Virus record (IMG/VR): IMGVR_UViG_3300031825_000009 | Location: 1-61,795 of that record | DNA length: 61,795 nt | Strand: one strand, 5' to 3' | Source of the DNA: a virus | Lineage: Duplodnaviria > Caudoviricetes | In this document: positions 5,581 to 24,437 of the stretch, piece after piece | How the letters are laid out: every line of letters starts with the position of its first letter | Position numbering within the stretch: position 1 is the stretch's first letter | Made by a program: the position numbers and the translations under genes | The notes under the pieces: generated by a model | What the model saw: the letters and a program-made list of their open reading frames with translations, nothing else | Databases searched by the model: none | Told to the model about the DNA's origin: nothing

Positions 5581-6347
5581 CAGATGCGCGACCGCGAGAG
5601 CTTGTCGACCACGTCCTGCCGGAACGCCGGGTCGGTCTTGTACTTCGGGTTCGCGATGTCGGCGAGCCACTCGGCTTGCGAGCGGTAGACACCGCCGCCA
5701 CCGGCCCCGACGCGCGGGGTGTCGAGGTAGGCCGGCTCCTTGCCGTTGGCCGCCTCGTAGGCGACCTTGAGGGCACGGACCTGAGCCTGAAGCTCGGCCA
5801 TCGAGCCGGTCGCAGACGCCTTGTTGAAGGCCGCGATCTGCTCCTTCGAGTAGCCGGTGGCCGCCCAGGCGAGCATGGCCTTGGCCTGCTCCTCGCCCCC
5901 GACCTCGGCGTAGAGGTCAGCGACGATGCGCTCGCCCTCGGCCCGCTTCGAGCCGATGTAGTCGTCGACCAGGGCCTTCGGGATGCCGGCCGCTTCGAGC
6001 TTGGCATAGCTCGCCTCGGACAGGGCGCCAGCGGTCTGGACCTCAGTGGCGAGGGCGTCGTAGTCGATCCCCTTGGCCGCAAGATCGGCCTCGACCTTCT
6101 GGTCTCCGGGGACCTTCTCGGGCGGAGTGTCCGTGGCAGCCGGCGGCGTATCCTCGGCCGCGGGCGGCGGAGCCTCTTCCCGGCCGGCCGTGCCCTGCTT
6201 GCGCTCCAGCTCGGAGTACGCCTTGGCGAGGTCCTCGGGGCTCTTGAACTTCTCCGGGAGCCACGCCGGGCGGTCTGTGGCCGGCGGCGGCGGGGCGTCG
6301 GGGCCGGTCGGCTCCGGCACGAACTCGACGCGGGTGACCTCACCCAT
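5580..6347 (-). CDS. Capsid scaffolding protein (T7 gp9-like)
   Basis: RPAWLPEKFKSPEDLAKAYSELE and C-terminal PKYKTDPAFRQDVVDKL motifs. Confidence 0.9.
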   Translation of the reverse strand: MGEVTRVEFVPEPTGPDAPPPPATDRPAWLPEKFKSPEDLAKAYSELERKQGTAGREEAPPPAAEDTPPAATDTPPEKVPGDQKVEADLAAKGIDYDALATEVQTAGALSEASYAKLEAAGIPKALVDDYIGSKRAEGERIVADLYAEVGGEEQAKAMLAWAATGYSKEQIAAFNKASATGSMAELQAQVRALKVAYEAANGKEPAYLDTPRVGAGGGGVYRSQAEWLADIANPKYKTDPAFRQDVVDKLSRSRI

Positions 6348-6504
6348 AGGTGACCACCGCGATGCCGTTGGAGTGGACCTTGCGGGTGGCCTTGCGGCCG
6401 TCCTCGGTGGTGATCTCGGTCACGGCCAGGGCCGGTCCGGCCACCGGGGCCGTCGGGGTCTCGGCAGACGCCTCGGGGGCGTCCGCGGCAGGCTTACGCG
6501 CTAT
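6340..6504 (-). CDS. Small hypothetical protein (54 aa) with putative ATA start; absent from ORF track
   Basis: GGAG-N7-ATA GCG CGT AAG; fills the portal-scaffold gap and overlaps both neighbours. Confidence 0.55.
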   Translation of the reverse strand: MARKPAADAPEASAETPTAPVAGPALAVTEITTEDGRKATRKVHSNGIAVVTYG

Positions 6505-8041: not shown

Positions 8042-8253
8042 GTCGGGATATTGAGCCCTGTACGACCCATGCCGCTGCCGGCGGCTAGGTCGATCTTGAG
8101 GGCGTTACGCCCGGACCGCTTGGTCGAGGTCACGCGCTTGGCGGCGGCGCTGTCGCCGGTGCCGAAGTTCGGCGGGGTGGCCGGATCGCTCGGCGGAGCC
8201 GGCGCTGGGGCCGGGGCTTCTGCCTGCTTGATGCTCGGCTTCGTGGGGCACAC
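8038..8253 (-). CDS. Small virion-associated protein (gp6.7/7.3-like)
   Basis: AGGAG SD, MC start, C-terminal GRNALKIDL...TGLNIP directly before portal. Confidence 0.65.
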   Translation of the reverse strand: MCPTKPSIKQAEAPAPAPAPPSDPATPPNFGTGDSAAAKRVTSTKRSGRNALKIDLAAGSGMGRTGLNIPT

Positions 8254-10064: not shown

Positions 10065-10280
10065 TCAGCGGCGAGCCCAGATGGCGGCGTACTGCTCGGC
10101 CAGCTCGATGCGGACCTCGATCAGGTCCTCGAAGGTGTCCTGGGCCACGACGACGGCGTCGACCGCAACGGCGGCGATGAACTGGGCCAGCGCTGCGGCA
10201 GCGAGAAAGAGGGCGGCGGCCGGGATGCTGGCCACGAGGGCCAGCCGGCGGAGGTAGAGGTTCTCGATCTTGGTGATCAT
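10065..10280 (-). CDS. Hypothetical membrane protein
   Basis: AAGGAG SD then ATG; hydrophobic segment. Confidence 0.6.
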   Translation of the reverse strand: MITKIENLYLRRLALVASIPAAALFLAAAALAQFIAAVAVDAVVVAQDTFEDLIEVRIELAEQYAAIWARR

Positions 10281-10588
10281 GAGGCTCCTTTGAGCAAGTT
10301 GGGGGCGTAGAAGCGGGCCATCGCAGCCAGCTCCGACCGTGATGCGGACGACTTCAGGCGGTTCGCCCGCCACGAGACGACGACCACGTTGCCCTTGATG
10401 TACCCGTGCTCCGGGATGATCTTGTCGAGGGACGGGGTGGCGTTCGTGCGGGGGCCGCCGGAGCGGTTGAGGGTGATCCCGAGGATCGGGCAGCGGTCCG
10501 GGATGACGATGTCGTCCAGGTCGATGCCGAAGGGGAGCCCGTCCCGCTTGGCCCGGTAGCGGGCGGAGCTGAGGAGGCGGCGCTCTAT
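10277..10588 (-). CDS. HNH-like endonuclease (T7 gp7.7-like); start uncertain, possibly ATA
   Basis: CPILG...PSLDKIIPEHGYIKGNVVVVSWRANRLK motif. Confidence 0.7.
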   Translation of the reverse strand: MERRLLSSARYRAKRDGLPFGIDLDDIVIPDRCPILGITLNRSGGPRTNATPSLDKIIPEHGYIKGNVVVVSWRANRLKSSASRSELAAMARFYAPNLLKGAS

Positions 10589-10595: not shown

Positions 10596-12560
10596 TCAGT
10601 GGGTGTCTTTCCAGGACTGGCCGATGACGGACTGGCCGTCGAGGGGACACCCGAAGTCGAAGTGCGTGCCAGCGTCAATGATCGCTTGTTCTGCGGTCTT
10701 TCCGACGAAATCGGCCCACTTCTCTGCTACGTCGATCTGCCACTCGTCATGGACGTTCGCGGCAAACTCATAGTCCACGCCGGGGACGAGCCCGGCTTCT
10801 TGTAGGCGCTTGTCCAGGAAGACGAGGGCCTGCTTCATGAGGATCGCCCCGGCGCTCTGGAGGAGCGTGTTGAGGGCGGCGTGAGCGGACCGGACGTGCA
10901 GCTTGCGCCCGTCCAGCCCGATGAGAAAGCCGCGGGTTTCCACCCGCTTTGCGATCCGCTGCACGAGGGTCCCGAGGGCCGGGAGGCTCCGCAGGAAGGT
11001 CTTGCGGGACCGCTCACCAGCGGCGGCAGCGACCTTGTCGACGCGGCTCCCGTCACGGCGCTTGGTCCAGTGATCCGGGTTCGTCGGGTCGCCCCGCTTC
11101 CCCATGATCCAGCCGAGCTTCTCGTTCCCGGCCCCGTAGATGAAGGCATAGAACCAGGTCTTGGCGATGTCCCGGCCCTTGGTCGGGGTGCCGTCGACTA
11201 GGTACTCCGCCTTCGGGTCCAGCCCGAGCGCCCGGCAGTTGACCGAGTGCATGTCCGTCCCGAGGTCCTTGTTCCCCTCCAGGACGGTCTTGATGTAGGC
11301 GCCACCGTCGATCGGAGCGAGGTAGCCGGCGAGGCAGCGCAGTTCCAGGGCGTCGGCATCGCAGCCCACGAGGCGTCCGAGAGAGTGCTCGAAGAGGTCC
11401 CGGCACTCGTGCCCATAGGGAGAGCCGCTCGACGGCACTTGGCCCATGTTGGGCTCCATGTGCGTCATGCGGCCGGTTACGGCGCCGTTGGTGACGATCG
11501 ACCCGTGGAGGCGCCCGTTGCGCTCCATCTTGAGCCACGCCATGCGGCCCTCGGCGAGCATCCCGATGCGCTTCTGGATCATCAGGTACTCGGAAAGCGG
11601 CTTGGCCTCCGGGTAGGGGAGCGTCGAGAGGACGGTGTCGTCGACCGTCGGCTTGCCGTCCTTACCGAACTCGGCGGGCTCCCATCCCCGCAGCTTGATG
11701 AGCCGGTCGGCGATGTGGTCGCGCGAGGACGGGTTGAAGTCGATCAGCTCGATCTTCTGGTAGACGGCCTCTTCGTGGTAGGTGGTCGGAGAGTGGACAC
11801 CCTTCCGCATGACGCGGGTCTTCTTGACGGTGACCACCTCTCGGCCACGGAACCAAGGTGGGAAGATCGTGCGGAGGTCCCGCTCCAGGTCGCAGCGCTT
11901 CTGGACCAGATGGCCGTAGAGCTTGCGGGCCTTCTCGACGTTGAACCGGAACCCCCAGGCTTCCTGCCGCAGGACGATCCGGGCGACGTCGTGCTCCAGC
12001 TCGATGCACTGTTCGGAGAACGGGATCGGGTCCTTGTCGCCCACGCCGGCAAGGCGGAGCAGGGCCTTCTTCCAGAGCCGCACGGTGACCCGCACGTCCT
12101 GGTCCATGTAGTCCTGCATCTCCTGGGACCAGCGATCCCAGGGGCCTTCGAACTCGCCCTTGTAGAGCCCGAGCCGGTGGCCGAACGCTTCGAGGCTGTA
12201 CTTGCCGATCAGCCTGGACGGGAACTGTCCATTCTCACGGCGGCGGAAGTCGGTGTCCTTGATGTCCGCCCATAGGACCCGAGCCATGAGCATCGTGTCG
12301 CGGGCCTGAGCGGACGTCCGCCACTCCGGGTAGACCTTCTGGATCGCTCGAAGGTCGAAGCCGACGATGTTGTGCCCGACGATCAGGTCGGCGTCGGCGA
12401 GGAGCCGTAGGCCGTGCTCGATCGGAAAGTAGTTCGGGCTGTCGTCCGTGCAGGAGATCAGCTCGTCCGTGTCGAGGTCGATCAGGGCGAGGCAGTGGAC
12501 GCGGGTGAGGTCTTCGAGGAAGCCGTCGGTCTCGACGTCGAAAGCGAAGCGGCGGCCTAT
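10596..12560 (-). CDS. DNA polymerase family A (T7 gp5-like); putative ATA start at 12560
   Basis: Exo I FDVETDG and Exo II GHNIVGFD lie upstream of the first ATG in the same open frame; DADALELR, AKTWFYAFIYG, NVHDEWQ motifs. Confidence 0.93.
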   Translation of the reverse strand: MGRRFAFDVETDGFLEDLTRVHCLALIDLDTDELISCTDDSPNYFPIEHGLRLLADADLIVGHNIVGFDLRAIQKVYPEWRTSAQARDTMLMARVLWADIKDTDFRRRENGQFPSRLIGKYSLEAFGHRLGLYKGEFEGPWDRWSQEMQDYMDQDVRVTVRLWKKALLRLAGVGDKDPIPFSEQCIELEHDVARIVLRQEAWGFRFNVEKARKLYGHLVQKRCDLERDLRTIFPPWFRGREVVTVKKTRVMRKGVHSPTTYHEEAVYQKIELIDFNPSSRDHIADRLIKLRGWEPAEFGKDGKPTVDDTVLSTLPYPEAKPLSEYLMIQKRIGMLAEGRMAWLKMERNGRLHGSIVTNGAVTGRMTHMEPNMGQVPSSGSPYGHECRDLFEHSLGRLVGCDADALELRCLAGYLAPIDGGAYIKTVLEGNKDLGTDMHSVNCRALGLDPKAEYLVDGTPTKGRDIAKTWFYAFIYGAGNEKLGWIMGKRGDPTNPDHWTKRRDGSRVDKVAAAAGERSRKTFLRSLPALGTLVQRIAKRVETRGFLIGLDGRKLHVRSAHAALNTLLQSAGAILMKQALVFLDKRLQEAGLVPGVDYEFAANVHDEWQIDVAEKWADFVGKTAEQAIIDAGTHFDFGCPLDGQSVIGQSWKDTH

Positions 12561-12784
12561 CGGGGTACCACCTTGAACGTCTTGCGGGCGGCCGCCGCCT
12601 TCCGGTTCATGCTCTTCCGAGCAAGCTGGAGTGCGACCGCGTTGTGGTAGGTCTTGGCCCGGCCGAAGGTCTCCCGCGCGGCGGCGACGAGGTCGCTCTC
12701 CAGGACGGTGGCCTTGACGAGGTCAGAAGGAGCCGGTCTCGGCGCCGGCTGCGGGATCACCATAAGTGCCGAACCCGTGGTCAT
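12557..12784 (-). CDS. Hypothetical protein
   Basis: GGAGG SD then ATG; fills the helicase-polymerase gap. Confidence 0.6.
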   Translation of the reverse strand: MTTGSALMVIPQPAPRPAPSDLVKATVLESDLVAAARETFGRAKTYHNAVALQLARKSMNRKAAAARKTFKVVPR

Positions 12785-14393
12785 CGGATGCCTCCTTTGT
12801 GGGGTCGCCCTCCAGCTCCACCAGCCGCCCTCGGCCGGGGTCGTACCCGAAGAACACGCACTGGCCGGTCGATTGGCCGGTGTAGCGGTCCTTGAGGACG
12901 CGGAAGGTGGTCGTGGAGCGGGCGACGAGGTCCTCGGCCTGCTGATTTCTCTCCAGGCCGAACATGAAGTGGCACCAGAAGCCGATGGCCCTGGAGCCCT
13001 TGAAGTGCCGGATCATCACCCGGCCGCCCTCCTCGTGGGGCTTGCCCTCGGGGGTGGCGAGGTGGCTGACGAGGTGGATGACGACGTCCAGTTCCTTCAC
13101 CAGGGCGCCCATCTCGGACATGATCCGCTCAAGCGCCGTGCGTTCGTCGTCCTCCGCCGCGGCAAGCGCGGTGAGGTGGTCGACGTAGAACAGGCGGACA
13201 CCGGCCGAGTGGGCCAGGAAGCGGATGATGGTCTGGATGACCGACCAGTCCGTCGCCCCGAAGCTGTCGTAGAGGTAGAGCTTGCCGCTCCCCTCCAGGC
13301 TGTCGAGCGCTTCGATCAGCTCGGGGCCGGTCCAGCTCCCGTCCGGGACGTGGAACCGCTTGCCGGCCAGCTTCCCGGCGATCCGCTTGATCGTCTCGAC
13401 GGGCTGCTGTTCCAGGGCGAAGACCGCCACCGGCTCCTTCAGGTGCGTGATGTCGAACTGGATCTGCTCGGTGAGGAAGTCCGTCTTGCCGACGCCGGTG
13501 CCGGCGCCGAAGGCGTAAATCTCGCCGGTCCTGCGGCCGTAGGTCAGCTTGGTGAGCTGAGGGGTCCACCAGGGGAGGCCCATGACCGGGTCTTCGAGGA
13601 CCCTGTCGCGGACGTCCGAGATCGTCACGACCCCGTCCGGGCGGAACTCTCGGGCGCCCCAGATGGCGGAGATGATCTCGCCCTCCCGGCCGGCCTTGAG
13701 CATCTCGCTCGCGTCCTTCAGGGGGAGCTTGGCGATCTTGCAGCGCCCCGGCGGGAAGAGCTGAGCGCAGTCCTGGGCGGCGGACCGGCCGACGTCGTCC
13801 TCGTCGAACATGAGGACAACCGTGTCGAACCGGAGAAGCCACTGGAGCGCCTTGGATAGGGACTTGCGGGCGCCCTGAGCGCCGTTCGGGACCGACACCA
13901 CGGGCCACTTGTTGCCCTGGGCCTGGGAGACCGACAGCGCGTCGATCTCACCCTCGGTGATGACGATCATCTTGCCGGCGTCGCGCCAAAGGTGCTGGCC
14001 GTAGAGGCCCGCCGCCTTGGTGTCGCCGAGGAACCGGAAGTCCTTGTTCTTGAACCGGACCTTCTGGGCGACGATGCGCCCGGTATCGGGGTCCCGGTAG
14101 TTGGCGACCTGGACAGTCTGGCCGCCGAGGTTGCTGACCGTGTAGCCCCACTTGCGGCAGGTCTCGTCGGTCAGCCTGCGGGCCGAGAGGGGCTGGGCCT
14201 CTCCCGGCTCGATCAGGTCAGATGACAGGCGATGCGTCTCCTTTCGGTCTGGTCGATCCTGCCCGTCGCCGGGCTCGTAGTGGCCGCACCCGAAGCAGTA
14301 GGCGTGGCCGTCGGAGTACCGGGCGAGGTTGTCGCGGGAGCCGCACGCTGGGCACGGCTCCTTGTGGAGGAAGGAGCTGTCGTCCTGGATCGT
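12723..14393 (-). CDS. Primase/helicase (T7 gp4-like); no canonical start for the Zn-finger N-terminus
   Basis: CPACGSRD...CFGC zinc finger, TOPRIM ITEGEIDALS, Walker A GAGTGVGKT and VDHL in one uninterrupted frame from 14408. Confidence 0.93.
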   Translation of the reverse strand, partial: TIQDDSSFLHKEPCPACGSRDNLARYSDGHAYCFGCGHYEPGDGQDRPDRKETHRLSSDLIEPGEAQPLSARRLTDETCRKWGYTVSNLGGQTVQVANYRDPDTGRIVAQKVRFKNKDFRFLGDTKAAGLYGQHLWRDAGKMIVITEGEIDALSVSQAQGNKWPVVSVPNGAQGARKSLSKALQWLLRFDTVVLMFDEDDVGRSAAQDCAQLFPPGRCKIAKLPLKDASEMLKAGREGEIISAIWGAREFRPDGVVTISDVRDRVLEDPVMGLPWWTPQLTKLTYGRRTGEIYAFGAGTGVGKTDFLTEQIQFDITHLKEPVAVFALEQQPVETIKRIAGKLAGKRFHVPDGSWTGPELIEALDSLEGSGKLYLYDSFGATDWSVIQTIIRFLAHSAGVRLFYVDHLTALAAAEDDERTALERIMSEMGALVKELDVVIHLVSHLATPEGKPHEEGGRVMIRHFKGSRAIGFWCHFMFGLERNQQAEDLVARSTTTFRVLKDRYTGQSTGQCVFFGYDPGRGRLVELEGDPTKEASDDHGFGTYGDPAAGAETGSF

Positions 14394-14400
14394 GTGGGGC

Positions 14401-14811
14401 TCACTCGATCATGGGGAGGCTGCCGAAGTCGTAGCTGCGCCCCGTCGGCGTCGGCTCGATGCGGACAACCCGGAGGGCCGTCGCGGGATCGCGCACCATC
14501 AGCACGAATGGCTGGGAGGCGGCCGCGGCATCGGGATCGCAGACGATCCGGCACGACTGGCGGGCCATCAGGTCCGCGTCCGGGCCGCCCGTGGTCGAGA
14601 TCCAGGTCCAGCGCCCTGGCAGGGTCACGGCAGGGGTGATCAGCTCGGCCTCGCCCGTTTCCGGGTCGGGCTCGCCGCGGACTTCCTCGGCGAGGTAGAC
14701 CGTCACGCCGGCGATCACGTGGCCGGTCAGGCGGCCCTCGACGACGCGGTCGGCGAGATCGGCCAGCAGCGCGGCCTCGTCGGGGTGGCAGAGGAGGTGA
14801 TCGGCGCTCAC
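14401..14811 (-). CDS. Hypothetical protein
   Basis: GTGA-coupled to the upstream gene. Confidence 0.55.
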   Translation of the reverse strand: MSADHLLCHPDEAALLADLADRVVEGRLTGHVIAGVTVYLAEEVRGEPDPETGEAELITPAVTLPGRWTWISTTGGPDADLMARQSCRIVCDPDAAAASQPFVLMVRDPATALRVVRIEPTPTGRSYDFGSLPMIE

Positions 14812-16476: not shown

Positions 16477-17874
16477 TTAGGACGCCTCGGCGCGGCGGGC
16501 GTCGAAGGCTTCGAAGACGTGGAAAGTCCGGCCAGGGAACTTCTTGGCGAGACGGTAGGCTTCCCGCGCGGCGTCGTACCGGTTCTGGTGAACCTTCGGG
16601 GCGGGCGCCGGGGCGAGCTTGCCGCCGACCTCCTCGATCACGATGCAGCCGTCGAACCGGGCGGCGGCCTCGACCACCGGCTCCAGCTTGGGCAGCTTCA
16701 CGAGGCGGCCACCAGCGTACTCGTCGATCCACCAGCCGCGGCCGCTGGGAACATTCCCGTGGCAGGTGTGGCCACGGTCCCACCCATCGATCTCCACGCC
16801 GGGGAAGGCGACGAAGCCGGCGGACAGGCACCGGAAGACCCCCTCGTGGCCGTCGCTGCGGGAGCCCGGCCAGACGATCAGGACACGGTCGCCATTCTTG
16901 AGGTCCTTCGGGTCGGCCTGGGCCAGCTCGAAGTCCTCCGGGGAGTAGCCGCCGTCCATCTGCGAATTGTGGTCCTTGATCCAGCGGACGTAGAGGAACT
17001 TGTTCAGCCTGTTGGGCACCTTCTCGATGACCGCCAGGGCGCCCTTGCTGGCGGACATACCACGGTTGTTGACGAGGCGGACGACGTCGCCCTTCTCGAA
17101 CGTCGGCTTGGCGGGCTCGGTCGGGAGCTTCTTCAGGCCATACCGCGGGACGTACCAGCAGTGGCCGTCCTTGAAGCGCTTGCCGCTCTTCGTTCCGCCG
17201 AGGCCGTCGTGGCCGCCGACGTGCTGGTCACACTCCACGAGCGGGTTGGACGAGCTGCGGGCGAAGTCGACGACCGTTCCCGTGACTCCGAGGGCCGCCC
17301 GGTTCGTCCCGATGCGGCCGACGATCTGGACCCGATCCCCCACCTTGAAGCCGCCCGAGGCGGGCGCCGTCTTCTGGGCCTCCTTCACCTCCTCCGGGAG
17401 GCGCTCGACGAGGGTCTGGGAGGGATCGCGGTTGATGCGCTGGCCGTCCAGGCTGTACCAGCGGCGGCTCATCGACGTGCGGTCGGCACTGGTCCCGAGG
17501 GAGACGACCCGAGCGCCGACCGGGTAGCCGCCGCTGTCGTGGGGCTCGAACTCCCTCACCTCGACGATCGTGCCGTCGGCCTGCTTGAAGCGGCGCCCGA
17601 CGTCGTCCTTGGTGATCTCCAGGGGCGCCGTGGCGACGTGCTTGAGCTGGGCCTGCGGGACATTCCAGCAGGTGCCGTCGGCGAACTCCTTGCCCGCCCG
17701 GCCGCAACCGTTGTGTCCATCGAAGCCGGGACCGAAGTCGACGAGGAAGGTGCTCCAGCGGCCGCTCGGGGTGTCCTTCACGACGCCATCGCGGTCGATG
17801 TTCCGCCCGTCGTAGTTACCCACGCCGCGGACCTTGTCGCCGACCTTGAACACGTTCGAATGCTCGTTCGTCAT
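16477..17874 (-). CDS. Multi-repeat protein with SH3/KOW-like modules
   Basis: Repeated FKVGDxV starts and GH(N/D)G...CW(N/Y)VP motifs. Confidence 0.7.
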   Translation of the reverse strand: MTNEHSNVFKVGDKVRGVGNYDGRNIDRDGVVKDTPSGRWSTFLVDFGPGFDGHNGCGRAGKEFADGTCWNVPQAQLKHVATAPLEITKDDVGRRFKQADGTIVEVREFEPHDSGGYPVGARVVSLGTSADRTSMSRRWYSLDGQRINRDPSQTLVERLPEEVKEAQKTAPASGGFKVGDRVQIVGRIGTNRAALGVTGTVVDFARSSSNPLVECDQHVGGHDGLGGTKSGKRFKDGHCWYVPRYGLKKLPTEPAKPTFEKGDVVRLVNNRGMSASKGALAVIEKVPNRLNKFLYVRWIKDHNSQMDGGYSPEDFELAQADPKDLKNGDRVLIVWPGSRSDGHEGVFRCLSAGFVAFPGVEIDGWDRGHTCHGNVPSGRGWWIDEYAGGRLVKLPKLEPVVEAAARFDGCIVIEEVGGKLAPAPAPKVHQNRYDAAREAYRLAKKFPGRTFHVFEAFDARRAEAS

Positions 17875-17930
17875 GCTGAGCTTGCTCTCGTTCTGCTTGC
17901 GTTCGTTCTGGGGAGGTTCTTGGTCGACCG

Positions 17931-18503
17931 TCAGCGGGTCTCGGGGGAGACCGGGGCGACGAGGTCGAAGTCGGACTTCTTGTGGGTGTGGCTCATGGCG
18001 CCGGGGGTGTGCCGGGCGGTGCCGTCGGCATTCCAGACGAAGCCGTCGCCGACCTTCTGGATGAAGCCGGGGTAGTGGAACGTCTTCATCGGGCCGTAGA
18101 CCTCGCCGTTCCTGGCGCGGTACTTCTTGCCCACCCTGACGACGATCGGGGCCGCCGGGGCGGGCTGCTTCTCGCGCTCGATCTTGTCGCCGATCTGGCG
18201 GGTCTTGAGGTCCTGCCCGTAGCTCACCGGCTTCTGGCCGACGAGGTAGTAGCGGGCGTAGCGCTGGCCGTTGACGTCCATCTTCGGGACCGAGACGATG
18301 TCGTAGCCGGCCGCCTTCAGGTCGCAGATGCGCCGGCTCAGGGAGCGGCAGCGGTAGAGCGCCTGGGCTTCGATGGCCGAGATGTGGCCCGGCCCGCCGG
18401 CCGCCGGCATCAGGTGCCGAAGGATCAGCTCGTTCATGGACTTGGCGTTGACGCGCTGGAACGGGCTGGCCTTGACGGCCCTGGTCTTCGGCTTCGTGGT
18501 CAT
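17931..18503 (-). CDS. Winged HTH DNA-binding protein
   Basis: ISAIEAQALYRCRSLSRRICDLKAAGYDI...YARYYL. Confidence 0.7.
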   Translation of the reverse strand: MTTKPKTRAVKASPFQRVNAKSMNELILRHLMPAAGGPGHISAIEAQALYRCRSLSRRICDLKAAGYDIVSVPKMDVNGQRYARYYLVGQKPVSYGQDLKTRQIGDKIEREKQPAPAAPIVVRVGKKYRARNGEVYGPMKTFHYPGFIQKVGDGFVWNADGTARHTPGAMSHTHKKSDFDLVAPVSPETR

Positions 18504-18594: not shown

Positions 18595-19047
18595 TCAGTG
18601 CTTGGTGGCCGCCTCGATCGCCTTCCAGCGGGCTTCGCTGTAGGGCTCGGCGAACCACTCGGGAGGGATGCGGGCGTCCGCGAAGCGGAACCCGTAGCGC
18701 CGGCACCAGTCGGCGTAGGTCGTCTTCGACGCCTTCGTCAGACGAGACGAGGAGCGGCTGAAGACGAACCGCAGGTCCAGGTCAGGGTGCTGCTCCTGGA
18801 GAAGCTTGTGCTTCTGGCGATCCTCGGTGAGGAAGCGCCCCTTGGTTTCGACGATGATGCCGTTGGGAAGGATGAAGTCCGGCCGATACGTCGAGGGCTT
18901 GCTCGGCTTGACGTAGGCGAGGCGGACTTCCTCGTACTTCACCTGGAGGCCCGCCGCGGCGATCTGGGCCGCGACGGTGTCCTCCAAGCCGGAGCGATAG
19001 CCGGCGGCTAGGCCCCGTGCGTCGGGCTTAGAAGTTGCCCGAGCCGT
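18595..19047 (-). CDS. Endonuclease I (T7 gp3-like); putative ACG start
   Basis: YRSGLED, YRPDFILPNGIIVETKG, KTTYADWC; the first TTG falls inside the conserved RSGLE motif. Confidence 0.9.
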   Translation of the reverse strand, partial: TARATSKPDARGLAAGYRSGLEDTVAAQIAAAGLQVKYEEVRLAYVKPSKPSTYRPDFILPNGIIVETKGRFLTEDRQKHKLLQEQHPDLDLRFVFSRSSSRLTKASKTTYADWCRRYGFRFADARIPPEWFAEPYSEARWKAIEAATKH

Positions 19048-19768
19048 CGTCTTCGTCCTTGGGCGAGGTGCTGCCGTCGTCGGCCTGGGCGCCCTCGGCG
19101 GCCGGAGCCTCCGGGTTGCCGTCCTCGTCGTAGCTCTCGAAGCCGTCGTCGTAGGTCTCGAAGCCCTCGGTCGGGTTGACCTCGACGCCGGTGCCCTGGA
19201 CCAGCTTGATGATCTGGGCAGCGACCAGCTTGACGCTGACGCCGACCTTCTTCTGGCCGGACCAGTAGTCGGCCTCGGCCGTGAAGTTGACGGCCATCGT
19301 CGATCCGGACCACGGGACCGCCTTGGTCGGCTTGCCCTTGCCGTCGACCACGACCGGCCGCTGGTTCACGACGTTCTCGACGCCGGTCTTCTTGTCCTTC
19401 CAGCGGCGGACAGCGTTCATCTTGAACTCGCACGAGATCTCGCCGGTGGGCTCGGCCTCGTCGTCGAGCACCTCGCGGAACGGCGAGCGGGCCATCTCGG
19501 CCTCCTTCAGGGCCACGAGGAGCTTCTTCTTCTCCTTCGGGTCCTTCTCGGCGGCCGCGGCGGCCTTCATCTCGGCCATCTTGTCGGTCGCCATCTTCTC
19601 GACCTTCTCGCGGATCGGGGAGATGACCTCGGCCGGCCAGATCAGCGTGACCTTGTAGACCCCGTCCTTGTTGAACTTGGTGTCCGGGACGTCGAGGCGC
19701 GGGTAGAGGGCGCGGCCCGGCGGGGTCGTGAACTTCACGCGGTTCCGGGGCTTGTAGGCTTCGGCTAT
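19028..19768 (-). CDS. ssDNA-binding protein (T7 gp2.5-like); putative ATA start
   Basis: TTPPGRALYPRL..PDTKFNKDGVYKV, acidic tail ending in F; AAAGGA-N9-ATA. Confidence 0.88.
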   Translation of the reverse strand: MAEAYKPRNRVKFTTPPGRALYPRLDVPDTKFNKDGVYKVTLIWPAEVISPIREKVEKMATDKMAEMKAAAAAEKDPKEKKKLLVALKEAEMARSPFREVLDDEAEPTGEISCEFKMNAVRRWKDKKTGVENVVNQRPVVVDGKGKPTKAVPWSGSTMAVNFTAEADYWSGQKKVGVSVKLVAAQIIKLVQGTGVEVNPTEGFETYDDGFESYDEDGNPEAPAAEGAQADDGSTSPKDEDDGSGNF

Positions 19769-20134: not shown

Positions 20135-20415
20135 CACCGGCGACCCCGCACGTCGCGGACGATCTCCTCGCGGACGTACTCCAGAGCGGCAGCGATCTCC
20201 GGCTGGTCCTTGGAGGCGTCGAGGAGGTTCTTGGCGGCGGTCATGACGTCGAATGCGGACGCCTTGCTGGCCGCGCAGATGGCGATGAAGAGGAGCGCCG
20301 CGGCGTGGGCCTGAAGTTCCGCCTGGAAGTTCTGGAGACGGGACACGGCGGCCATCAAGGCGGCGCCGACCGCCTTCGGGCTGGCGTGGTTGAGCTTGTC
20401 GGGGTCGAGGATCAC
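20134..20415 (-). CDS. Hypothetical protein
   Basis: GAGGAG SD and GTGA coupling. Confidence 0.65.
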   Translation of the reverse strand: MILDPDKLNHASPKAVGAALMAAVSRLQNFQAELQAHAAALLFIAICAASKASAFDVMTAAKNLLDASKDQPEIAAALEYVREEIVRDVRGRR

Positions 20416-21338
20416 GGCAGCACCGGCTCCTCGATCACATGACCCTTGAGGAGCGTCAGCTTGCCCTCGGTGTAGAGCTTGGCGACTTCCTTCAGGCCGT
20501 CCTCGGTGACGTAGATGTCCACCGTGCCGAAATACTCGTTCACCCGCTCGGTGAAGAGCTTCTCCCGGAACTGGTGGTAGACCCGGTACGGGGAGGCGCT
20601 GTTGAGCCGGTAGAAGTACCCGAGGTTCTTCAGGTCCCGCTTGATCAGGTTCGAGTTGAGGCCGGGAAGGTAGCGGCCGAGGTGGCCGATGCGCTTCTTG
20701 GTCTTCCCGACGACCTGGGACACCCGCCCCAGCTCGTCCTCGGCCTGCCGCTTCGCCGCCCGCGCCGCCTCGGCCTCCGCCTTGGTCCGCGCGTGGGCCT
20801 CCAGCTCTTCGGCCAGCTTGAGCGACATGGCCGCGTTCTGCCGCAGCGCCGAGGCGAAGTCAGGCGGCAACGGGATCGGCTCGCCTTCCGGGAGCATGTA
20901 GCCGCCGGTCTTGCGGATGGACGGCAGGACCTCCCGCGTCACCCACTCCTGGAACGGCTTCGCGGCCGGCTTGTTGGATCGCATGATGAGCTTGTAGAGG
21001 CCGCTCTCGGAGACGGTCCGGTAGATGGTGTAGGGCTTGTGGGTGCCAGGGGAGGTTTCGATCGAAACGAAACCCAGCTCGTCTGCGGAAAGTGCGCGTG
21101 TGGCGTCGGTCACGTTCGCCTTTCCGGCGTGCGTCACGCGATAGCCGAGCGTCTTGCAGACGTCAGCGACCACGAACCACGGAGCCCCGTCGATCGTCAC
21201 CACGCGAACGGTGTGCGTCTTGGAGACGCCGTCGATGAGGGCCTGGAAGTCGAACCGCCGGACGGGCGACGCTTCGCTGGTCCCGGCGCTGAACTTGGAG
21301 ACCTTCGGGGCCTCCTTGGTGGCGGTGTGGGCGATCAC
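20412..21338 (-). CDS. BRO-N domain (antirepressor-like) protein
   Basis: PWFVVADVCKTLG, SESGLYKLIMRSNKPAAKPFQEWVTREVLPSIRKTGGY. Confidence 0.85.
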   Translation of the reverse strand: MIAHTATKEAPKVSKFSAGTSEASPVRRFDFQALIDGVSKTHTVRVVTIDGAPWFVVADVCKTLGYRVTHAGKANVTDATRALSADELGFVSIETSPGTHKPYTIYRTVSESGLYKLIMRSNKPAAKPFQEWVTREVLPSIRKTGGYMLPEGEPIPLPPDFASALRQNAAMSLKLAEELEAHARTKAEAEAARAAKRQAEDELGRVSQVVGKTKKRIGHLGRYLPGLNSNLIKRDLKNLGYFYRLNSASPYRVYHQFREKLFTERVNEYFGTVDIYVTEDGLKEVAKLYTEGKLTLLKGHVIEEPVLP

Positions 21339-21797: not shown

Positions 21798-21821
21798 GGG
21801 GCCGGCTCCTCGGCGCCTTGG

Positions 21822-24320
21822 CTACGCGAAGAAGAACGGGGACGAGAGGACCTCGGACAGGTCCAGCGTTCCCTGAGGTGGCAGCTCCGGGACCTCCTTG
21901 CGAAGGTCCTCGGGGAGCTGGCCGAGGAGGCGCTCGCGGAACTCGGCGAGCGGGTCGTGGTCGGTGTACATGCCGACGAAGGCGGCCCGAAGCTCGCGGG
22001 CGAGCGTGTCCGTGTCGGCGGCATGGGTGCCGTAGCTGTCGTGGACCATCGCGAACGACGCGATGCCGGCGGCTTTGGCCCGGAGGACCGTGAGCGTCAG
22101 CGCTGCCGCGTCCAGCGAGTGGACGAAGTTCGGAGCGATGGCGCTCGCCTGCCTGAGCTTGGCGATCTCCCCGGTGTCCTCCCGCACGAGCGGGCGGACG
22201 ATCTGCCCGTGAATGCGGGTCTTGACGCGCCGGTCGTGGTGGGCGGCGTAGCGCTGGTAGACCAGGAACCCGGACGGGGCGGCCCAGGTCAGCGGAATGT
22301 CCGCCTTTCCGGCCACTCGGGCGGCCGCCTGGAGCCACGACATGCCGACCCTCGCGGCCACCACGACTTGGCCGATCGAGGCCCAGACGAGCGACCCGAG
22401 CCAGCCGACGGCGGCGCTCCACTCCTCCTCGGGGACGTCGAGCGAGGCGCCGGCTGCGATCTTCTCGCGGACCGCGTCCCGCACGTAGTCGCGGCAGGAG
22501 GTGATGGTGCCGCCGTAGGGGAGGACCATGACCGACCGCTTGGTGATCTTGCGGTCGATCCCGAAGTCGAGGAAGGCGTGCGCCCAGGATCGCGTCGTCT
22601 CCTCCTCCACGCATTCATGGAGGGGGCGTGTGGCCACGTCCAGCAGGCGCTCCTCAACTACCTTGGCGACCTCCCCGTACACGTCCTGGGGCCGATCGCT
22701 CGGCACGAGGTTGACGGCTCGGCCGCCGACCGGGTCCCGGAGCATGGCCGAGTAGTGCTGGAGGCCGTTGCAGGAGCCGTCGAGGGCGATCGGCAGGGAC
22801 GAGCGAAACGCCAGCCCCTCGCGGAGGTAGCCGGACCACTCGTGGCAGGCCGCCAGGAACGACCAGGGGCTATCCGCGCCGGTCCACCAGCGGTTCGCGA
22901 GCGGGTCTGCGGCGACCGCCTGGATGGCCTCCCGGTGCCCGTCCACCCACGCTCGGCGGGCGTCGAAGGGGACCTTGTCCTCGCCCCAGGTGTTCGCCGT
23001 GTGGACCGCGAGCCAGTTGGCGGCGGCCTCCGTGCCCAGGGGCTTGCCCTCGGCGAACGTCAGGAGGCCCTTGGCGAGGTCGTCGCCCTGGGGCTGAAGC
23101 CACCGCGGCAGGGCATAGAGCCGCCCGCGGAAGTCCAGGTTGTGCGGGAAGTACATGGCCTCCCGCTCGGCGTAGTCCTCGGCGATCCGCAGGCACTCGG
23201 CGACGCTGCGCCGTTGGGTGACCAGCTCGGACCTGAGCCGGTAGACGTCGTGCGCCTCCCGTCGCCAGACCCGCCGGGCCTCCTCGTTGGTCTCGATGTC
23301 CTCCGGCTTGGCCGGGACCGGCGGATCGTCCCGCGGCGGCAGGATCGGAATGTCGAGCCCGCCGTCCCAGATGGCCTTGGCGACCTCCAGGACAGGGCGG
23401 TTCACCCGCCAAGGGGTCTCCTGGACGGCGTTGAGGGCGCCGGTGACGCGGCTCAGGTCCGCCTCGGCGGTCAGAAGCCGGCCATGCTCGGCCCGGTTCG
23501 AGAACTTCACGAGGCCGGCCCGCTGGAGCCTCTCGGTCCAGTAGCCGCCGCTCCGGAGCCCGGTCCAGGGCTTCGGCGGGATGACACACGGCCGGGCGGC
23601 GGGGGCGAGCCCCTCGACACGGCGGTTGTAGTCCGTCACCCAGGAGGCAGCCGCCGGCTCCAGGGCGAGCATGGTGGTCGTCTTGGGCACGCCGCGGACC
23701 ATCTTCCGCGCGGTGTCGAGTCGCACCATGCCGGTGGCGTCGATCAGCAACTCGACCAGCTTCGCCCCGACGATGACGCGCTCGCCGGCCGTCCACCGGG
23801 TGGGCTCGATCCCCTCCCGGAACATGGCGACCGAGATGGCCCGGCGCTTGTGGATCTCGTTCGAGGTCGTCTCGCGGAAGCGCCGCTCCCACCAGCGCCA
23901 GAGCGACGGGTGGGCCGCCTCGAAGCGGGCGACGGACGCCTCGACCTCCAGAGCCGTGCAGATCGCGTTGGCGACCGGAGCGAGTGGCTGCGGGCCGGAT
24001 GCGAGGCCGTCGAGGACGTGGCGGGCGGTGAGGTAGGCGATCTCGTCGGGGTCCATGTCCCCGACCAGGAGGACCGCCGTGTGGCGCGGCCCTGGGCGGC
24101 CGCTGCGGGCGTCCTCGAAGAACGATCGGATGGCCTCGGAGAGCGGTCCGACGACCGTCGTCAAGAGGCGCCTGTAGCCGGCGGCCTGGGTGGGGTGACC
24201 GCGTTCCTCGGCCCGCTTCAGGCGGTAGCGGAACACGTCGATCCCCTCGTCGTACATGCGGTCCTCGATCTCCTCTTGGACCGGCCAGAGCGGGTGGTCG
24301 GTAGGCGAACAGAACGTGAT
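21822..24320 (-). CDS. Single-subunit T7-like RNA polymerase; start either ATC 24320 or GTG 24383
   Basis: DGSCNGLQH, RKITKRSVMVLPYG, PNFVHSLDA, VHDSYGTH and C-terminal FFFA. Confidence 0.95.
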   Translation of the reverse strand: MTFCSPTDHPLWPVQEEIEDRMYDEGIDVFRYRLKRAEERGHPTQAAGYRRLLTTVVGPLSEAIRSFFEDARSGRPGPRHTAVLLVGDMDPDEIAYLTARHVLDGLASGPQPLAPVANAICTALEVEASVARFEAAHPSLWRWWERRFRETTSNEIHKRRAISVAMFREGIEPTRWTAGERVIVGAKLVELLIDATGMVRLDTARKMVRGVPKTTTMLALEPAAASWVTDYNRRVEGLAPAARPCVIPPKPWTGLRSGGYWTERLQRAGLVKFSNRAEHGRLLTAEADLSRVTGALNAVQETPWRVNRPVLEVAKAIWDGGLDIPILPPRDDPPVPAKPEDIETNEEARRVWRREAHDVYRLRSELVTQRRSVAECLRIAEDYAEREAMYFPHNLDFRGRLYALPRWLQPQGDDLAKGLLTFAEGKPLGTEAAANWLAVHTANTWGEDKVPFDARRAWVDGHREAIQAVAADPLANRWWTGADSPWSFLAACHEWSGYLREGLAFRSSLPIALDGSCNGLQHYSAMLRDPVGGRAVNLVPSDRPQDVYGEVAKVVEERLLDVATRPLHECVEEETTRSWAHAFLDFGIDRKITKRSVMVLPYGGTITSCRDYVRDAVREKIAAGASLDVPEEEWSAAVGWLGSLVWASIGQVVVAARVGMSWLQAAARVAGKADIPLTWAAPSGFLVYQRYAAHHDRRVKTRIHGQIVRPLVREDTGEIAKLRQASAIAPNFVHSLDAAALTLTVLRAKAAGIASFAMVHDSYGTHAADTDTLARELRAAFVGMYTDHDPLAEFRERLLGQLPEDLRKEVPELPPQGTLDLSEVLSSPFFFA

Positions 24321-24437
24321 CGCGGGGCTTTCCTTTCTCGCAATTTCAAGACCGCTAGGCCACGCCTTACGCCACGGTGGCACCGCCTAGCGGCCTCAAT
24401 GCCACCAAATCCGCTCCATTTCTGGAGCCATCAGTGC

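What the first reader, a model, noticed from the sequence alone, without database searches (positions are those of the whole stretch)
6340..24383. T7-like prophage replication genes appear to use non-canonical start codons (possible translational lock)
Seen: the DNA polymerase frame has no ATG/GTG/TTG before its Exo I/II motifs and plausibly begins ATA at 12560, overlapping the upstream TAG (ATAG, analogous to ATGA coupling). The primase frame opens at 14408 with only ACG (14393) or ATC (14390) before the zinc finger. An internal AAAGGAG-N9-CTG (14228) sits where T7 gp4B starts. SSB has AAAGGA-N9-ATA (19768), endonuclease I has AAGGA-N8-ACG (19047), RNAP has AAAGGA-N10-ATC (24320), a 54-aa ORF has GGAG-N7-ATA (6504), and the HNH-like gene may start at ATA (10588). 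Main structural genes use ATG/GTG/TTG, and I saw no internal stops in the affected genes. Known: IF3 discriminates against AUA/AUC/ACG/CUG starts. Inference: toxic replication genes are kept translationally near-silent in the lysogen and released on induction (for example by an IF3 antagonist, by AUA/ACG-to-AUG editing, or simply by massive phage-RNAP transcription). Caveats: RNAP and SSB also have upstream in-frame GTG/TTG; the primase case could be a 1-bp deletion in the C-run after GTGAG.
Basis: partly seen in the sequence, partly recalled or inferred. Interest (0 to 1): 0.88.

Follow-up and report, generated by a model that had tools for sequence, protein, structure and literature searches.

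The report
Weak start codons on phage replication genes
A T7-like prophage starts several DNA-replication genes with rare, weak start codons (ATA, ACG or ATC, CTG) where related phages have ATG, GTG or TTG, which probably keeps these enzymes scarce unless the phage transcribes them heavily.

Summary
On the minus strand, the DNA polymerase (ATA 12560), primase-helicase (ACG 14393 or ATC 14390), its internal short-form start (CTG 14228) and endonuclease I (ACG 19047) carry a near-cognate codon exactly where orthologues carry ATG/GTG/TTG. All four reading frames are intact.

- **Sequence quality:** a second assembler rebuilds the stretch from the likely source run with 0 differences. A ~99% identical relative from another study shows no indel at the primase start.
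- **ATA rarity:** the coding strand holds only 14 ATA triplets in 22 kb, and 4 of them sit at proposed starts.
- **Specificity:** small phage genes, structural genes and the neighbouring prophage use canonical starts.
- **Recurrence:** 8 of 128 related polymerase sequences (window included), 4 of 49 endonucleases (window included) and 2 of 104 exonucleases also lack a canonical start. They use CTG, ATC, ATT or ATA, often overlapping the upstream stop (CTGA, ATAA).
- **Unsettled cases:** RNAP, SSB and the 54-aa ORF have canonical alternatives. The HNH-like gene may be 5'-truncated.

Best reading (about 0.6): programmed weak initiation, helped by Shine-Dalgarno sites and stop-start coupling, keeps costly or toxic enzymes scarce. 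A dedicated "lock" with a releasing factor or RNA editing has no support. This is a new variant of a known kind, of moderate to high interest.

The parts
24504..24577 (-). tRNA-Cys (GCA), co-directional with and just upstream of the phage RNA polymerase gene; the att-side border of the T7-like element
   Evidence: ARAGORN; sequence
21822..24320 (-). Single-subunit phage RNA polymerase. Candidate starts are ATC 24320 or ACG 24317 (behind AAAGGA), GTG 24383 (upstream, in a stretch that does not look coding) and ATG 24257 (would cut into the N-terminal domain).
   Evidence: Pfam RNA_pol 8e-106; RPOL_N matches from residue 15 of the ATC-start protein. Orthologues start 8-20 codons before the conserved internal Met that corresponds to 24257. 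Third-position G+C is 55% in the first 20 codons after 24386.
19028..19768 (-). gp2.5-like single-stranded DNA-binding protein (SSB). ATA 19768 (AAAGGAA-N9) gives an M-A-E N-terminus like the orthologues; TTG 19807 and GTG 19738 are canonical alternatives.
   Evidence: PHROG 112, Pfam SBB_T7, orthologue N-termini, ATA rarity
18595..19047 (-). Endonuclease I (T7 gp3-like). ACG 19047 lies inside the SSB acidic tail, 20 nt before its stop. The only canonical codon, TTG 18987, is the Leu of the conserved RSGLE motif.
   Evidence: PHROG 945 at 1.7e-47; alignments; the window's own gene call is the 130-aa truncated form P0244
14401..14826 (-). 141-aa ORF upstream of the primase. Its TGA (14403-14401) lies 7 nt before ACG 14393 and overlaps an out-of-frame GTG 14404 (GTGA).
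12723..14393 (-). Primase-helicase (T7 gp4-like) with an intact zinc finger. The start is ACG 14393 or ATC 14390; the first canonical in-frame codon is ATG 13970.
14226..14244 (-). Internal start for a short, helicase-only (gp4B-like) form: AAAGGAG (14244-14238), 9-nt spacer, CTG 14228
   Evidence: 37 of 64 orthologues have ATG/GTG/TTG within one column; SD duplex -8.7 kcal/mol, 3rd percentile of all positions
12557..12784 (-). 75-aa ORF (ATG behind AAAGGAGG) whose TAG overlaps the DNA polymerase ATA. Phage Pasto has a small ORF in the same place.
10596..12560 (-). T7-like family A DNA polymerase. It starts at ATA 12560 in an ATAG overlap behind AAGGTGG-N7.
10277..10588 (-). HNH/endonuclease VII-like gene. 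ATA 10588 lies 7 nt after the polymerase stop with no SD. The gene may be a 5'-truncated copy.
   Evidence: PHROG 3322 matches only from profile position 51 of 162. The relatives in X2 and X3 carry 420 letters in place of 20 at 10600-10621.
6340..6504 (-). 54-aa ORF between portal and scaffold. ATA 6504 lies behind GGAG-N7; GTG 6444 is an alternative.
16477..17934 (-). Gene of unknown function. ATG 17874 is canonical, but coding-like third-position G+C begins about 14 codons earlier, and CTG 17934 overlaps the upstream TGA (CTGA).

Best explanation
The element is a T7-like (Autographiviridae-type) prophage whose DNA-metabolism genes are built to initiate on near-cognate codons:
- AUA for the DNA polymerase, and probably for SSB and two small genes;
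- AUC or ACG for the primase-helicase;
- CUG for its short form;
- ACG for endonuclease I;
- perhaps AUC for the RNA polymerase.

Initiator tRNA still reads these codons, but at roughly a hundredth of the AUG rate. Shine-Dalgarno sites (polymerase, short primase form) and closeness to the upstream stop codon deliver ribosomes to them. That closeness is an ATAG overlap for the polymerase, TGA-N7 for the primase and HNH gene, and a start inside the SSB tail for the endonuclease.

The result is a low protein yield per mRNA. It would be negligible from read-through or leaky transcripts in the lysogen, and enough for catalytic enzymes once the phage RNA polymerase floods the cell with class II mRNA.

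Shown: the codons, their orthology to real starts, their rarity elsewhere, gene integrity, and recurrence in relatives.
Inferred: that they are the codons actually used, the efficiency, and the benefit (dose limitation and a safer lysogen).
For: 1. Position.
- ATA 12560 aligns with the ATG of L036 (M-G-R-R versus I-G-R-R).
- ACG 19047 aligns with the Met of the M-A-R-A homologues P0248 and P0249, and with L012 and L005.
- ATC 14390 aligns with the Met of P0128 and P0130-P0132 and with the TTG of L005.
- CTG 14228 sits at a column where 37 of 64 orthologues have ATG/GTG/TTG, against about 11% expected from the 3.7% in-frame density.

2. Ribosome delivery. SD duplex energies are -8.3 kcal/mol (DNAP ATA) and -8.7 (CTG 14228). 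These are the 4th and 3rd percentiles of all positions and match the best canonical genes. The DNAP has a -4 type overlap (ATAG).

3. ATA statistics. There are 14 ATA triplets on the coding strand and 6 in frame among 7092 codons. Four are at proposed starts and a fifth lies 5 codons after a GTG start.

4. Specificity.
- Early genes and the small genes between exonuclease and portal use ATGA/GTGA or other canonical starts.
- The capsid, portal, scaffold and tail genes are canonical.
- Genes at 24.7-61.8 kb have canonical starts where third-position G+C switches on, and no ATA at starts.

5. Not an error.
- Contigs rebuilt from run X1 cover all the sites with 0 differences and 0 gaps. X1 may be the source sample.
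- X2 and X3 (another study) cover 13084-14420 and 13051-14420 with 6 substitutions and 0 gaps.

6. Maintained genes.
- There are no stops or frameshifts.
- DNAP residues 1-89 are 67.8% identical to P0005, against 64.1% for the rest of the protein.
- The primase N-terminal part is 73% identical to P0124, against 87% for the rest, and all four zinc-finger cysteines are present.
- Listed X2/X3 differences are at third codon positions in 9 of 9 (portal) and 6 of 8 (DNAP) cases (my arithmetic).

7. Recurrence.
- DNAP: no canonical start in 8 of 128 distinct sequences (window included), plus L119, which the survey scored 'far'. By inspection these are CTGA overlaps in L011, L005/L006/L041 and L119; SD-ATC in L044 and L127; an ATAA overlap in L134.
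- Endonuclease: 4 of 49 (window included): CTGA in L013 and L025, ATT in L052.
- Exonuclease: CTGA in L032 and L119.
- Primase: ATT in L023.
- Capsid 0 of 44, portal 0 of 56, SSB 0 of 40.
- In loci with G+C of at least 0.58, ATG starts 15 of 40 DNAPs and 6 of 36 exonucleases, but 30 of 31 capsids.
- Temperate phage Pasto has TTG, GTG, TTG and GTG on its primase, small ORF, DNAP and exonuclease.

8. A relative with 83-90% protein identity (13,413-nt contig) has its endonuclease called only from after the RSGLE motif (P0245) and its DNAP called from the internal Met (P0032). This is as expected if canonical starts are missing there too.

9. Published rates in E. coli: AUA/AUC/AUU/CUG run at 0.1-3% of AUG and other codons at 0.01-1%. 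AUC and ACG gave Met-initiated protein from a T7-promoter vector (10.1101/063800, passages).
Against: - No expression, ribosome-profiling or N-terminal peptide data exist. No run on record as RNA was listed.
- ACG is among the poorer initiators in E. coli.
- SSB is needed in bulk in T7 (recalled), which sits badly with an AUA start. SSB also has TTG 19807 and GTG 19738.
- RNAP, HNH and the 54-aa ORF also have canonical alternatives.
- The closest primase (P0124, 83% identity) has a normal Met, so the primase state is not old.
- For the primase, an out-of-frame GTG 14404 in a classic GTGA overlap, followed by CCCC, offers a different route.
- I could not read the codons at these sites in the ~99% identical relatives, because one search lists only 40 of 496 differences.
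- Those relatives carry 664 and 420 letters in place of 6 and 20 at the two ends of the polymerase gene, so these junctions are in flux.
- P0032 also ends early, so that relative's contig may be decaying or poorly assembled.
- The T7-like element runs off the window's left edge, so its completeness and inducibility are unknown.
- The start-codon survey assigns the nearest in-frame canonical codon automatically and is not curated.
Confidence: 0.6

Rival explanations
1. Start-codon loss in a grounded prophage. The lysogen lineage survived because mutations knocked down the replication genes. The genes are now silent relics with no release mechanism.
For: - Each near-cognate codon is one substitution from ATG.
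- The closest primase homologue still has Met.
- The HNH-like gene looks 5'-truncated.
- Indels flank the DNAP in close relatives.
- A related contig has a broken DNAP (P0032).
- The element is cut by the window edge, so intactness is unproven.
Against: - Four or more start-position hits with no nonsense or frameshift in about 1,360 codons (654 + 556 + 150 from the proposed starts) is very unlikely under neutral decay. By my own rough estimate, start loss is only a few percent of knock-out routes per gene.
- The N-terminal domains are as conserved as the rest of each protein.
- Listed differences from the ~99% relative fall mainly on third codon positions.
- ATA is concentrated at starts, although internal Met codons are about 3 times more numerous as targets.
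- Strong SD sites persist at ATA 12560 and CTG 14228.
- The same device is seen in independent phages, including L119 with two CTGA starts.
Confidence: 0.2
2. Primase only. Translation starts at GTG 14404, which overlaps the upstream TGA (GTGA). It reaches the primase frame by a -1 slip of tRNA-Pro on C-CCC-A, or the gene is simply frameshifted by loss of one C.
For: - GTGA is the commonest coupling motif (PMC12548453, passages).
- A -1 slip from CCC (14398-14396) to CCC (14399-14397) re-pairs perfectly (my reading).
- With one more C the product would begin M-S-P-H-T-I-Q-D. That matches the length and several residues of P0124's M-P-P-D-R-I-T-Q-D.
Against: - There is no heptameric slippery site or obvious stimulator.
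- The C4 run is shared, without gaps, by the X2 and X3 relatives, and the primase stretch differs at only 6 of 1337 positions. That argues against a dead gene.
- The same trick cannot work for the DNAP, where a slip from the GTG 12571 frame re-pairs on ACC, or for the endonuclease, which has no ATG/GTG/TTG in any frame.
- ATC 14390 aligns with the Met of most homologues.
Confidence: 0.12
3. A dedicated translational lock. A phage early product (an IF3 antagonist or similar) or RNA editing converts these codons into efficient starts on induction.
For: - The codons are confined to the T7-like element and absent from the neighbouring prophage.
- Several early ORFs have no known family.
- IF3 excess selectively inhibits non-canonical starts and SD-less reinitiation (PMC2268962, passages).
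Against: - No candidate factor was identified.
- The codon types are heterogeneous (ATA, ACG, ATC, CTG), so no single editing chemistry fits.
- High transcription alone suffices in E. coli reporters.
Confidence: 0.05
4. Sequencing or assembly error at the start codons.
For: Two of the sites lie next to CCCC runs.
Against: - Contigs rebuilt from X1 are identical over every site.
- Contigs from X2 and X3, in another study, show no gap at the primase start.
- Errors would not fall only on start codons.
Confidence: 0.02

Closest known systems
E. coli infC (IF3) and pcnB (poly(A) polymerase I), both with AUU starts
   Same: A near-cognate initiation codon is kept by selection to hold down the level of a protein that is harmful or self-limiting in excess. 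IF3 discriminates against such codons (PMC2268962, passages).
   Different: Those are single host genes, and infC has a defined autoregulatory loop. Here, four or more genes of one phage module carry ATA, ACG/ATC or CTG. No feedback factor is known and the driver would be phage transcription.
Translational coupling by termination-reinitiation at NTGA (-4) overlaps (PMC12548453 and PMC10666635, passages)
   Same: The DNAP start overlaps the upstream stop by the same geometry. Many other genes of this phage use ATGA or GTGA. Relatives use CTGA.
   Different: In ATAG and ATAA overlaps the stop is TAG or TAA, and the start must then be ATA. In the passages I read, these papers treat -4 overlaps as NTGA and mention only ATT as a non-canonical partner.
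T7 gene 4, which gives 4A and 4B from two in-frame starts (recalled)
   Same: An internal SD plus start lies about 60 codons into the primase-helicase frame, at a column where 37 of 64 orthologues have ATG/GTG/TTG.
   Different: The window has CTG at the internal start and ACG or ATC at the long-form start, so both forms would be made at a low rate.
Rhizobium phage Pasto (MT708545), a temperate Autographiviridae phage
   Same: It is the best DNAP match among cultured phages (51% identity). The order is the same: primase, small overlapping ORF, DNAP, nuclease gene, exonuclease. Its starts are weak: TTG, GTG, TTG, GTG.
   Different: Pasto stays within the canonical trio. The window goes one step weaker, to near-cognates.

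Membership tests
T7-like (Autographiviridae-type) phage replication module | Single-subunit phage RNA polymerase | tested here: met
   Pfam RNA_pol 8.3e-106 and RPOL_N 5.5e-13
T7-like (Autographiviridae-type) phage replication module | gp2.5-like SSB, endonuclease I, fused primase-helicase, family A DNA polymerase and exonuclease in T7 order | tested here: met
   PHROG 112 and 945; precomputed PF13155/PF03796, PF00476 and PF05367 on the window's own proteins; synteny with phage Pasto; tblastn hits to Autographiviridae
T7-like (Autographiviridae-type) phage replication module | Integrated, temperate form (integrase, att sites) | tested here: inconclusive
   tRNA-Cys abuts the RNAP end. No integrase was seen in the part of the element inside the window, and the element runs off the left edge.
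Near-cognate start-codon attenuation (infC/pcnB type) | A near-cognate codon at the true initiation site of an intact, maintained gene | tested here: met
   Orthology of ATA 12560, ACG 19047, ATC 14390/ACG 14393 and CTG 14228 to real starts; intact, conserved N-terminal domains
Near-cognate start-codon attenuation (infC/pcnB type) | Initiation actually occurs at that codon, at a reduced rate | not testable with these tools
   Needs ribosome profiling, N-terminal proteomics or reporters
Termination-reinitiation coupling | Start within a few nucleotides of, or overlapping, the upstream stop | tested here: met
   DNAP has an ATAG overlap; primase and HNH have TGA-N7; the endonuclease start lies 20 nt before the SSB stop
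Termination-reinitiation coupling | Downstream translation depends on upstream translation | not testable with these tools
   Needs an upstream-stop or upstream-start mutant reporter
Programmed ribosomal frameshifting (dnaX/prfB type) | A slippery site that lets tRNAs re-pair in the new frame, placed so that a canonical start feeds the gene | tested here: not met
   DNAP: a slip from the GTG 12571 frame would re-pair CCC on ACC. Endonuclease: no canonical codon in any frame. Primase: only a P-site C-CCC-A slip is possible.

The most novel reading that the evidence does not exclude
A lineage of temperate T7-like phages uses AUA and other near-cognate codons as programmed initiation codons across its whole replication module, including ATAG/ATAA stop-start overlaps. 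This sets a translational threshold. Stray transcripts in the lysogen, for example read-through from the adjacent tRNA gene into the RNA polymerase, give essentially no protein. Only the phage polymerase's own transcriptional burst crosses the threshold. This would be a lysogeny-safety device for a phage type once thought strictly lytic, possibly sharpened by an early phage factor that relaxes start-codon proofreading.
Probability: 0.3. Interest if true: 0.78.

Novelty: new variant of a known kind. Interest (0 to 1): 0.6.

Why it matters
- **Annotation.** Gene callers truncate or miss these genes. The window's own DNAP, primase and endonuclease are on record as 565-, 415- and 130-aa fragments that lack the exonuclease motifs, the zinc finger and part of the catalytic motif. 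Annotations of temperate T7-like elements are therefore systematically wrong at their key enzymes.
- **Biology.** A multi-gene set of near-cognate starts would show how a phage with a runaway, self-amplifying transcription system can live as a prophage.
- **Test system.** It would offer a natural system for measuring AUA/ACG/CUG initiation and reinitiation at ATAG/CTGA overlaps outside E. coli reporters.
- **Expression trend.** In G+C-rich relatives, ATG starts 30 of 31 capsid genes but only 15 of 40 polymerases and 6 of 36 exonucleases. This makes start-codon strength a readable mark of intended expression level in these phages.

Tried and rejected
Closer relatives.
- Scans of genome contigs, viral contigs and metagenome contigs with the DNAP gave nothing above 55% identity.
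- A viral-contig scan with the primase P0124 did not return its own 13,413-nt contig.
- A degenerate pattern for the DNAP N-terminus found 0 stretches.

Reading the start codons in the ~99% identical relatives. Read laying lists only 40 of 496 substitutions and 12 of 20 indels, and none of the listed ones lies at a start site. This does not show identity at those sites. No listed run is on record as RNA, so nothing can be said about expression.

Absence of internal canonical codons downstream of the weak starts. There are 89 such codons in the DNAP (P about 0.03) and 141 in the primase (P about 0.005). Gaps of 70-148 codons occur elsewhere in the same genes, so I give this little weight.

SD strength as a general criterion. 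Many canonical genes here have weak SD sites, so a weak SD at ACG 14393, ACG 19047 or ATA 10588 decides nothing.

Frameshift explanations for the DNAP and endonuclease: rejected (see the membership test).

Host-wide relaxed initiation: rejected for this window, because the neighbouring genes are canonical.

Terminator between tRNA-Cys and RNAP.

Literature. Searches (terms given in those calls) returned no paper on near-cognate starts in T7-like prophages. The LUZ100 paper has 0 occurrences of 'start codon'. Supplementary files were not consulted; those of the Hecht et al. preprint hold the per-codon values.

Full report
**What the window is.** The window is a 61,795-base virus record with about 68% G+C. 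From about 24,400 down to base 1 on the minus strand lies a T7-like element.
- It begins with a single-subunit RNA polymerase (Pfam RNA_pol 8e-106), placed directly downstream of and co-directional with tRNA-Cys.
- Next come early ORFs, including an Ant-like gene.
- Then follow a gp2.5-like SSB and endonuclease I, a winged-helix protein, two large ORFs, the primase-helicase, a 75-aa ORF, a family A DNA polymerase (DNAP), an HNH/endonuclease VII-like gene, small ORFs and the exonuclease.
- Last come the portal, scaffold, capsid and tail genes.
- The DNAP's best cultured relative is the temperate Rhizobium phage Pasto (51% identity), which has the same local gene order.
- The element runs off the left edge of the window. 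Genes to the right of the tRNA belong to something else.

**The observation.**
- The DNAP frame opens at 12722 and has no ATG/GTG/TTG until codon 144, well past the first exonuclease motif.
- The primase-helicase frame opens at 14408 and has none until codon 147, past the zinc finger.
- The window's own proteins are on record as the truncated forms: 565, 415 and 130 aa for DNAP, primase and endonuclease.

**Where the genes should start.** I collected 192 related loci from bacterial genomes, IMG/VR and metagenomes, plus homologous proteins. I then compared their N-termini with the window's.
- *DNAP.* Orthologues start 3-7 codons before the F-D-x-E-T motif. The window's ATA-GGC-CGC-CGC aligns codon for codon with the ATG-GGC-CGA-CGT of L036. 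ATA overlaps the TAG of the upstream 75-aa ORF (ATAG), the same geometry as ATGA. It lies 7 nt behind AAGGTGG. The duplex energy is -8.3 kcal/mol, the 4th percentile of all positions.
- *Endonuclease I.* Many homologues begin inside the acidic tail of SSB with M-A-R-(A/R/T). P0249 reads M-A-R-A...D-A-R-G-V-A-H-G-Y-R-S-G-L-E-D, and the window reads T(ACG)-A-R-A...D-A-R-G-L-A-A-G-Y-R-S-G-L-E-D. No ATG/GTG/TTG exists in any frame between about 19100 and 18990. The only canonical in-frame codon, TTG 18987, is the Leu of the conserved RSGLE motif.
- *Primase.* 110 of 113 distinct sequences have a canonical start. ATC 14390 aligns with the Met of P0128, P0130, P0131 and P0132 and with the TTG of L005, and ACG 14393 aligns with others. 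The closest homologue, P0124 (83% identity), starts five codons further up.
- *Internal primase start.* 37 of 64 orthologues have ATG (18), GTG (17) or TTG (2) within one column of the window's CTG 14228. About 11% would be expected from the in-frame density of such codons. AAAGGAG lies 9 nt upstream (-8.7 kcal/mol, 3rd percentile). This is the position of the short, helicase-only form known from T7 gene 4 (recalled).

**Is it more than chance?**
- ATA is almost absent from this phage. There are 14 triplets on the coding strand between 2330 and 24400, and 6 are in frame among 7092 codons.
- Four of the 14 are the proposed starts of SSB (19768), DNAP (12560), the HNH-like gene (10588) and the 54-aa ORF (6504). 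A fifth (8447) lies five codons after a GTG start.
- Allowing a generous junction zone and the right frame, I expect about 0.3. By my own rough Poisson estimate P is about 2e-4.
- This raises my belief in the SSB and small-ORF cases, which orthology alone leaves open. From ATA 19768 SSB reads M-A-E-A-Y-K, like the M-A-E, M-A-D and M-A-K N-termini of orthologues. But TTG 19807 and GTG 19738 remain possible, and the Pfam SSB profile begins only at about residue 16.

**Specificity.**
- The early ORFs, the small genes between exonuclease and portal, the 141-aa ORF and the structural genes all have canonical starts, most in ATGA or GTGA overlaps.
- Genes in the rest of the window have a canonical codon within a few codons of where third-position G+C switches on, and none has ATA at the start.
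- So the feature belongs to the main enzymes of the T7-like element and not to the host's translation in general.

**Is the sequence right?**
- Contigs built by another assembler from run X1 (possibly the source sample) cover all the sites with 0 differences and 0 gaps.
- Runs X2 and X3, from a different study, hold a relative about 98.5-99.5% identical. Their contigs cover the primase start (to 14420) with 6 substitutions and no gap, so the C4 run is not an assembly slip.
- Of the listed differences, 9 of 9 in the portal and 6 of 8 in the DNAP fall on third codon positions (my arithmetic). That is the signature of purifying selection.
- I could not see the relatives' letters at the start codons, because only 40 of 496 differences are listed.
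- Those relatives also replace 6 letters at 12561-12566 with 664 letters (X2). They replace 20 letters at 10601-10620 with 420 letters (X2 and X3). These are exactly the two ends of the DNAP gene. ATA 12560 itself lies in the aligned part.

**Are the N-terminal parts still under selection?**
- DNAP residues 1-89, upstream of the first ATG, are 67.8% identical to P0005, against 64.1% for the rest of the protein.
- The primase N-terminal 141 residues are 73% identical to P0124, against 87% for the rest. Other homologues show similar ratios.
- The exonuclease motif and the four zinc-finger cysteines are intact.

**Recurrence elsewhere.** An automatic survey took the nearest in-frame canonical codon to the extrapolated start, counting distinct sequences and including the window.

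| Gene | n | ATG | GTG | TTG | none | far | contig edge |
|---|---|---|---|---|---|---|---|
| DNAP | 128 | 84 | 21 | 14 | 8 | 1 | 0 |
| Primase | 113 | 66 | 28 | 16 | 3 | 0 | 0 |
| Endonuclease | 49 | 16 | 11 | 9 | 4 | 7 | 2 |
| Exonuclease | 104 | 54 | 28 | 20 | 1 | 1 | 0 |
| SSB | 40 | 32 | 5 | 2 | 0 | 1 | 0 |
| Portal | 56 | 37 | 8 | 11 | 0 | 0 | 0 |
| Capsid | 44 | 43 | 1 (the window) | 0 | 0 | 0 | 0 |

Inspection of the 'none' and 'far' cases shows real alternatives:
- CTG overlapping the upstream TGA (CTGA): the DNAPs of L011, L005/L006/L041 and L119, the endonucleases of L013 and L025, and the exonucleases of L032 and L119.
- ATC behind a strong SD: the DNAPs of L044 and L127.
- ATT behind AAAGGAGG (the primase of L023), or at the position of another phage's TTG (the endonuclease of L052).
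- ATA overlapping TAA (ATAA): the DNAP of L134.

In loci with G+C of at least 0.58, ATG starts 15 of 40 DNAPs, 6 of 36 exonucleases, 15 of 36 primases and 5 of 26 endonucleases. It starts 30 of 31 capsids and 15 of 16 tail-tube genes. Pasto uses TTG, GTG, TTG and GTG on its primase, small ORF, DNAP and exonuclease. The window is therefore the extreme of a general habit: weak starts on class II enzymes.

In the nearest relative I could detect (83-90% protein identity, 13,413-nt contig), the endonuclease is called only from after RSGLE, and the DNAP only from the internal Met. The primase is full length. This suggests that the endonuclease and DNAP states are older than the primase state. I could not fetch that DNA, and the DNAP there also ends early.

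**How it most likely works.**
- Initiator tRNA can read near-cognates. In E. coli reporters AUA, AUC, AUU and CUG gave about 0.1-3% of AUG and other codons 0.01-1%. AUC and ACG constructs in a T7-promoter vector still gave purifiable, Met-initiated protein (10.1101/063800, passages).
- IF3 selects against such codons and against SD-less reinitiation (PMC2268962, passages).
- Closely spaced or overlapping stop and start codons hand ribosomes on (PMC12548453 and PMC10666635, passages).
- Here the polymerase and the short primase form have strong SD sites. The polymerase has a -4 overlap. The primase and HNH codons lie 7 nt past a TGA, and the endonuclease start lies inside the end of a gene that should be heavily translated.
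- I infer a low, fixed yield per transcript. That suits catalytic, potentially toxic enzymes.
- It would also suit a prophage whose RNA polymerase gene sits right behind a tRNA gene. Stray transcripts give almost nothing, while phage-polymerase transcription compensates.
The other two (an IF3 antagonist, RNA editing) have no support, and the mixture of codon types argues against editing.

**Rivals.**
- *Neutral or host-selected decay* explains single substitutions from ATG. It does not explain four or more hits on starts with no hit in about 1,360 codons (654 + 556 + 150 from the proposed starts), the conserved N-terminal domains, the retained SD sites or the recurrence in other phages.
- *The primase alone* could also start at the out-of-frame GTG 14404 (a GTGA overlap) and slip -1 on C-CCC-A. 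The hypothetical product would match P0124's N-terminus in length. I give this about 0.12.
- *The HNH-like gene* matches its PHROG only from profile position 51 of 162, at a place where relatives have 400 more letters. It may be a truncated copy and not an ATA-initiated gene.
- *The RNAP* may use GTG 24383. However, the 21 codons after it have 57% third-position G+C by my own count from the sequence (55% for the first 20-codon block against more than 85% beyond it). The Pfam N-terminal domain starts 7 residues before ATG 24257, and orthologues start 8-20 codons before that Met. The true start is therefore near 24320.

**Verdict.** Near-cognate attenuation and stop-start coupling are known principles. 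Their combined, multi-gene use in a temperate T7-like phage, and ATA in ATAG/ATAA overlaps, appear not to be described in the papers my three searches could reach.

Noticed in passing
window 12560-12567 and 10600-10621: In the ~99% identical relatives, 6 letters are replaced by 664 (run X2) and 20 letters by 420 (runs X2 and X3). These are exactly the 5' and 3' ends of the DNA polymerase gene. They may be extra (possibly mobile nuclease) genes there, or deletions here. The replacing letters could not be read.
   Followed up: partly
window 17874-17934: The 465-aa gene of unknown function has ATG 17874. Coding-like third-position G+C starts about 14 codons earlier, and CTG 17934 overlaps the upstream TGA (CTGA). 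This is possibly one more near-cognate start.
   Followed up: partly
window 14808-16076: A 422-aa ORF inside the replication module matches a PHROG annotated as tail protein (phrog_5939, 7.5e-38). That is an odd place for a tail gene.
   Followed up: no
window 20412-21338: An anti-repressor (Ant)-like gene lies among the early genes of a T7-like element (phrog_130, 2.3e-42).
   Followed up: no
window 14420: Contigs of both X2 and X3 stop at 14420, 8 nt upstream of the ATG 14412 near the primase start. This suggests strain variation in the upstream 141-aa ORF region.
   Followed up: no
L119 (metagenome contig, 16.9 kb): This second T7-like phage has two CTGA-type starts, on its DNA polymerase and its exonuclease. 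Its primase is canonical, and an in-frame ATG lies 23 codons upstream of the endonuclease's expected start.
   Followed up: partly
L045 (IMG/VR provirus): The DNAP has an ATG homologous to its relatives' start but out of frame, in a C-rich stretch. An in-frame ATC lies 7 nt behind AGAGG.
   Followed up: partly
window 24700-61795: A second, unrelated phage-like region lies on the other side of tRNA-Cys. It has ordinary canonical starts. The virus record thus seems to join parts of two elements.
   Followed up: no
window 4413-4482: The capsid gene appears to start at GTG 4413 (or TTG 4482), whereas 43 of the other 43 capsid sequences start with ATG.
   Followed up: no
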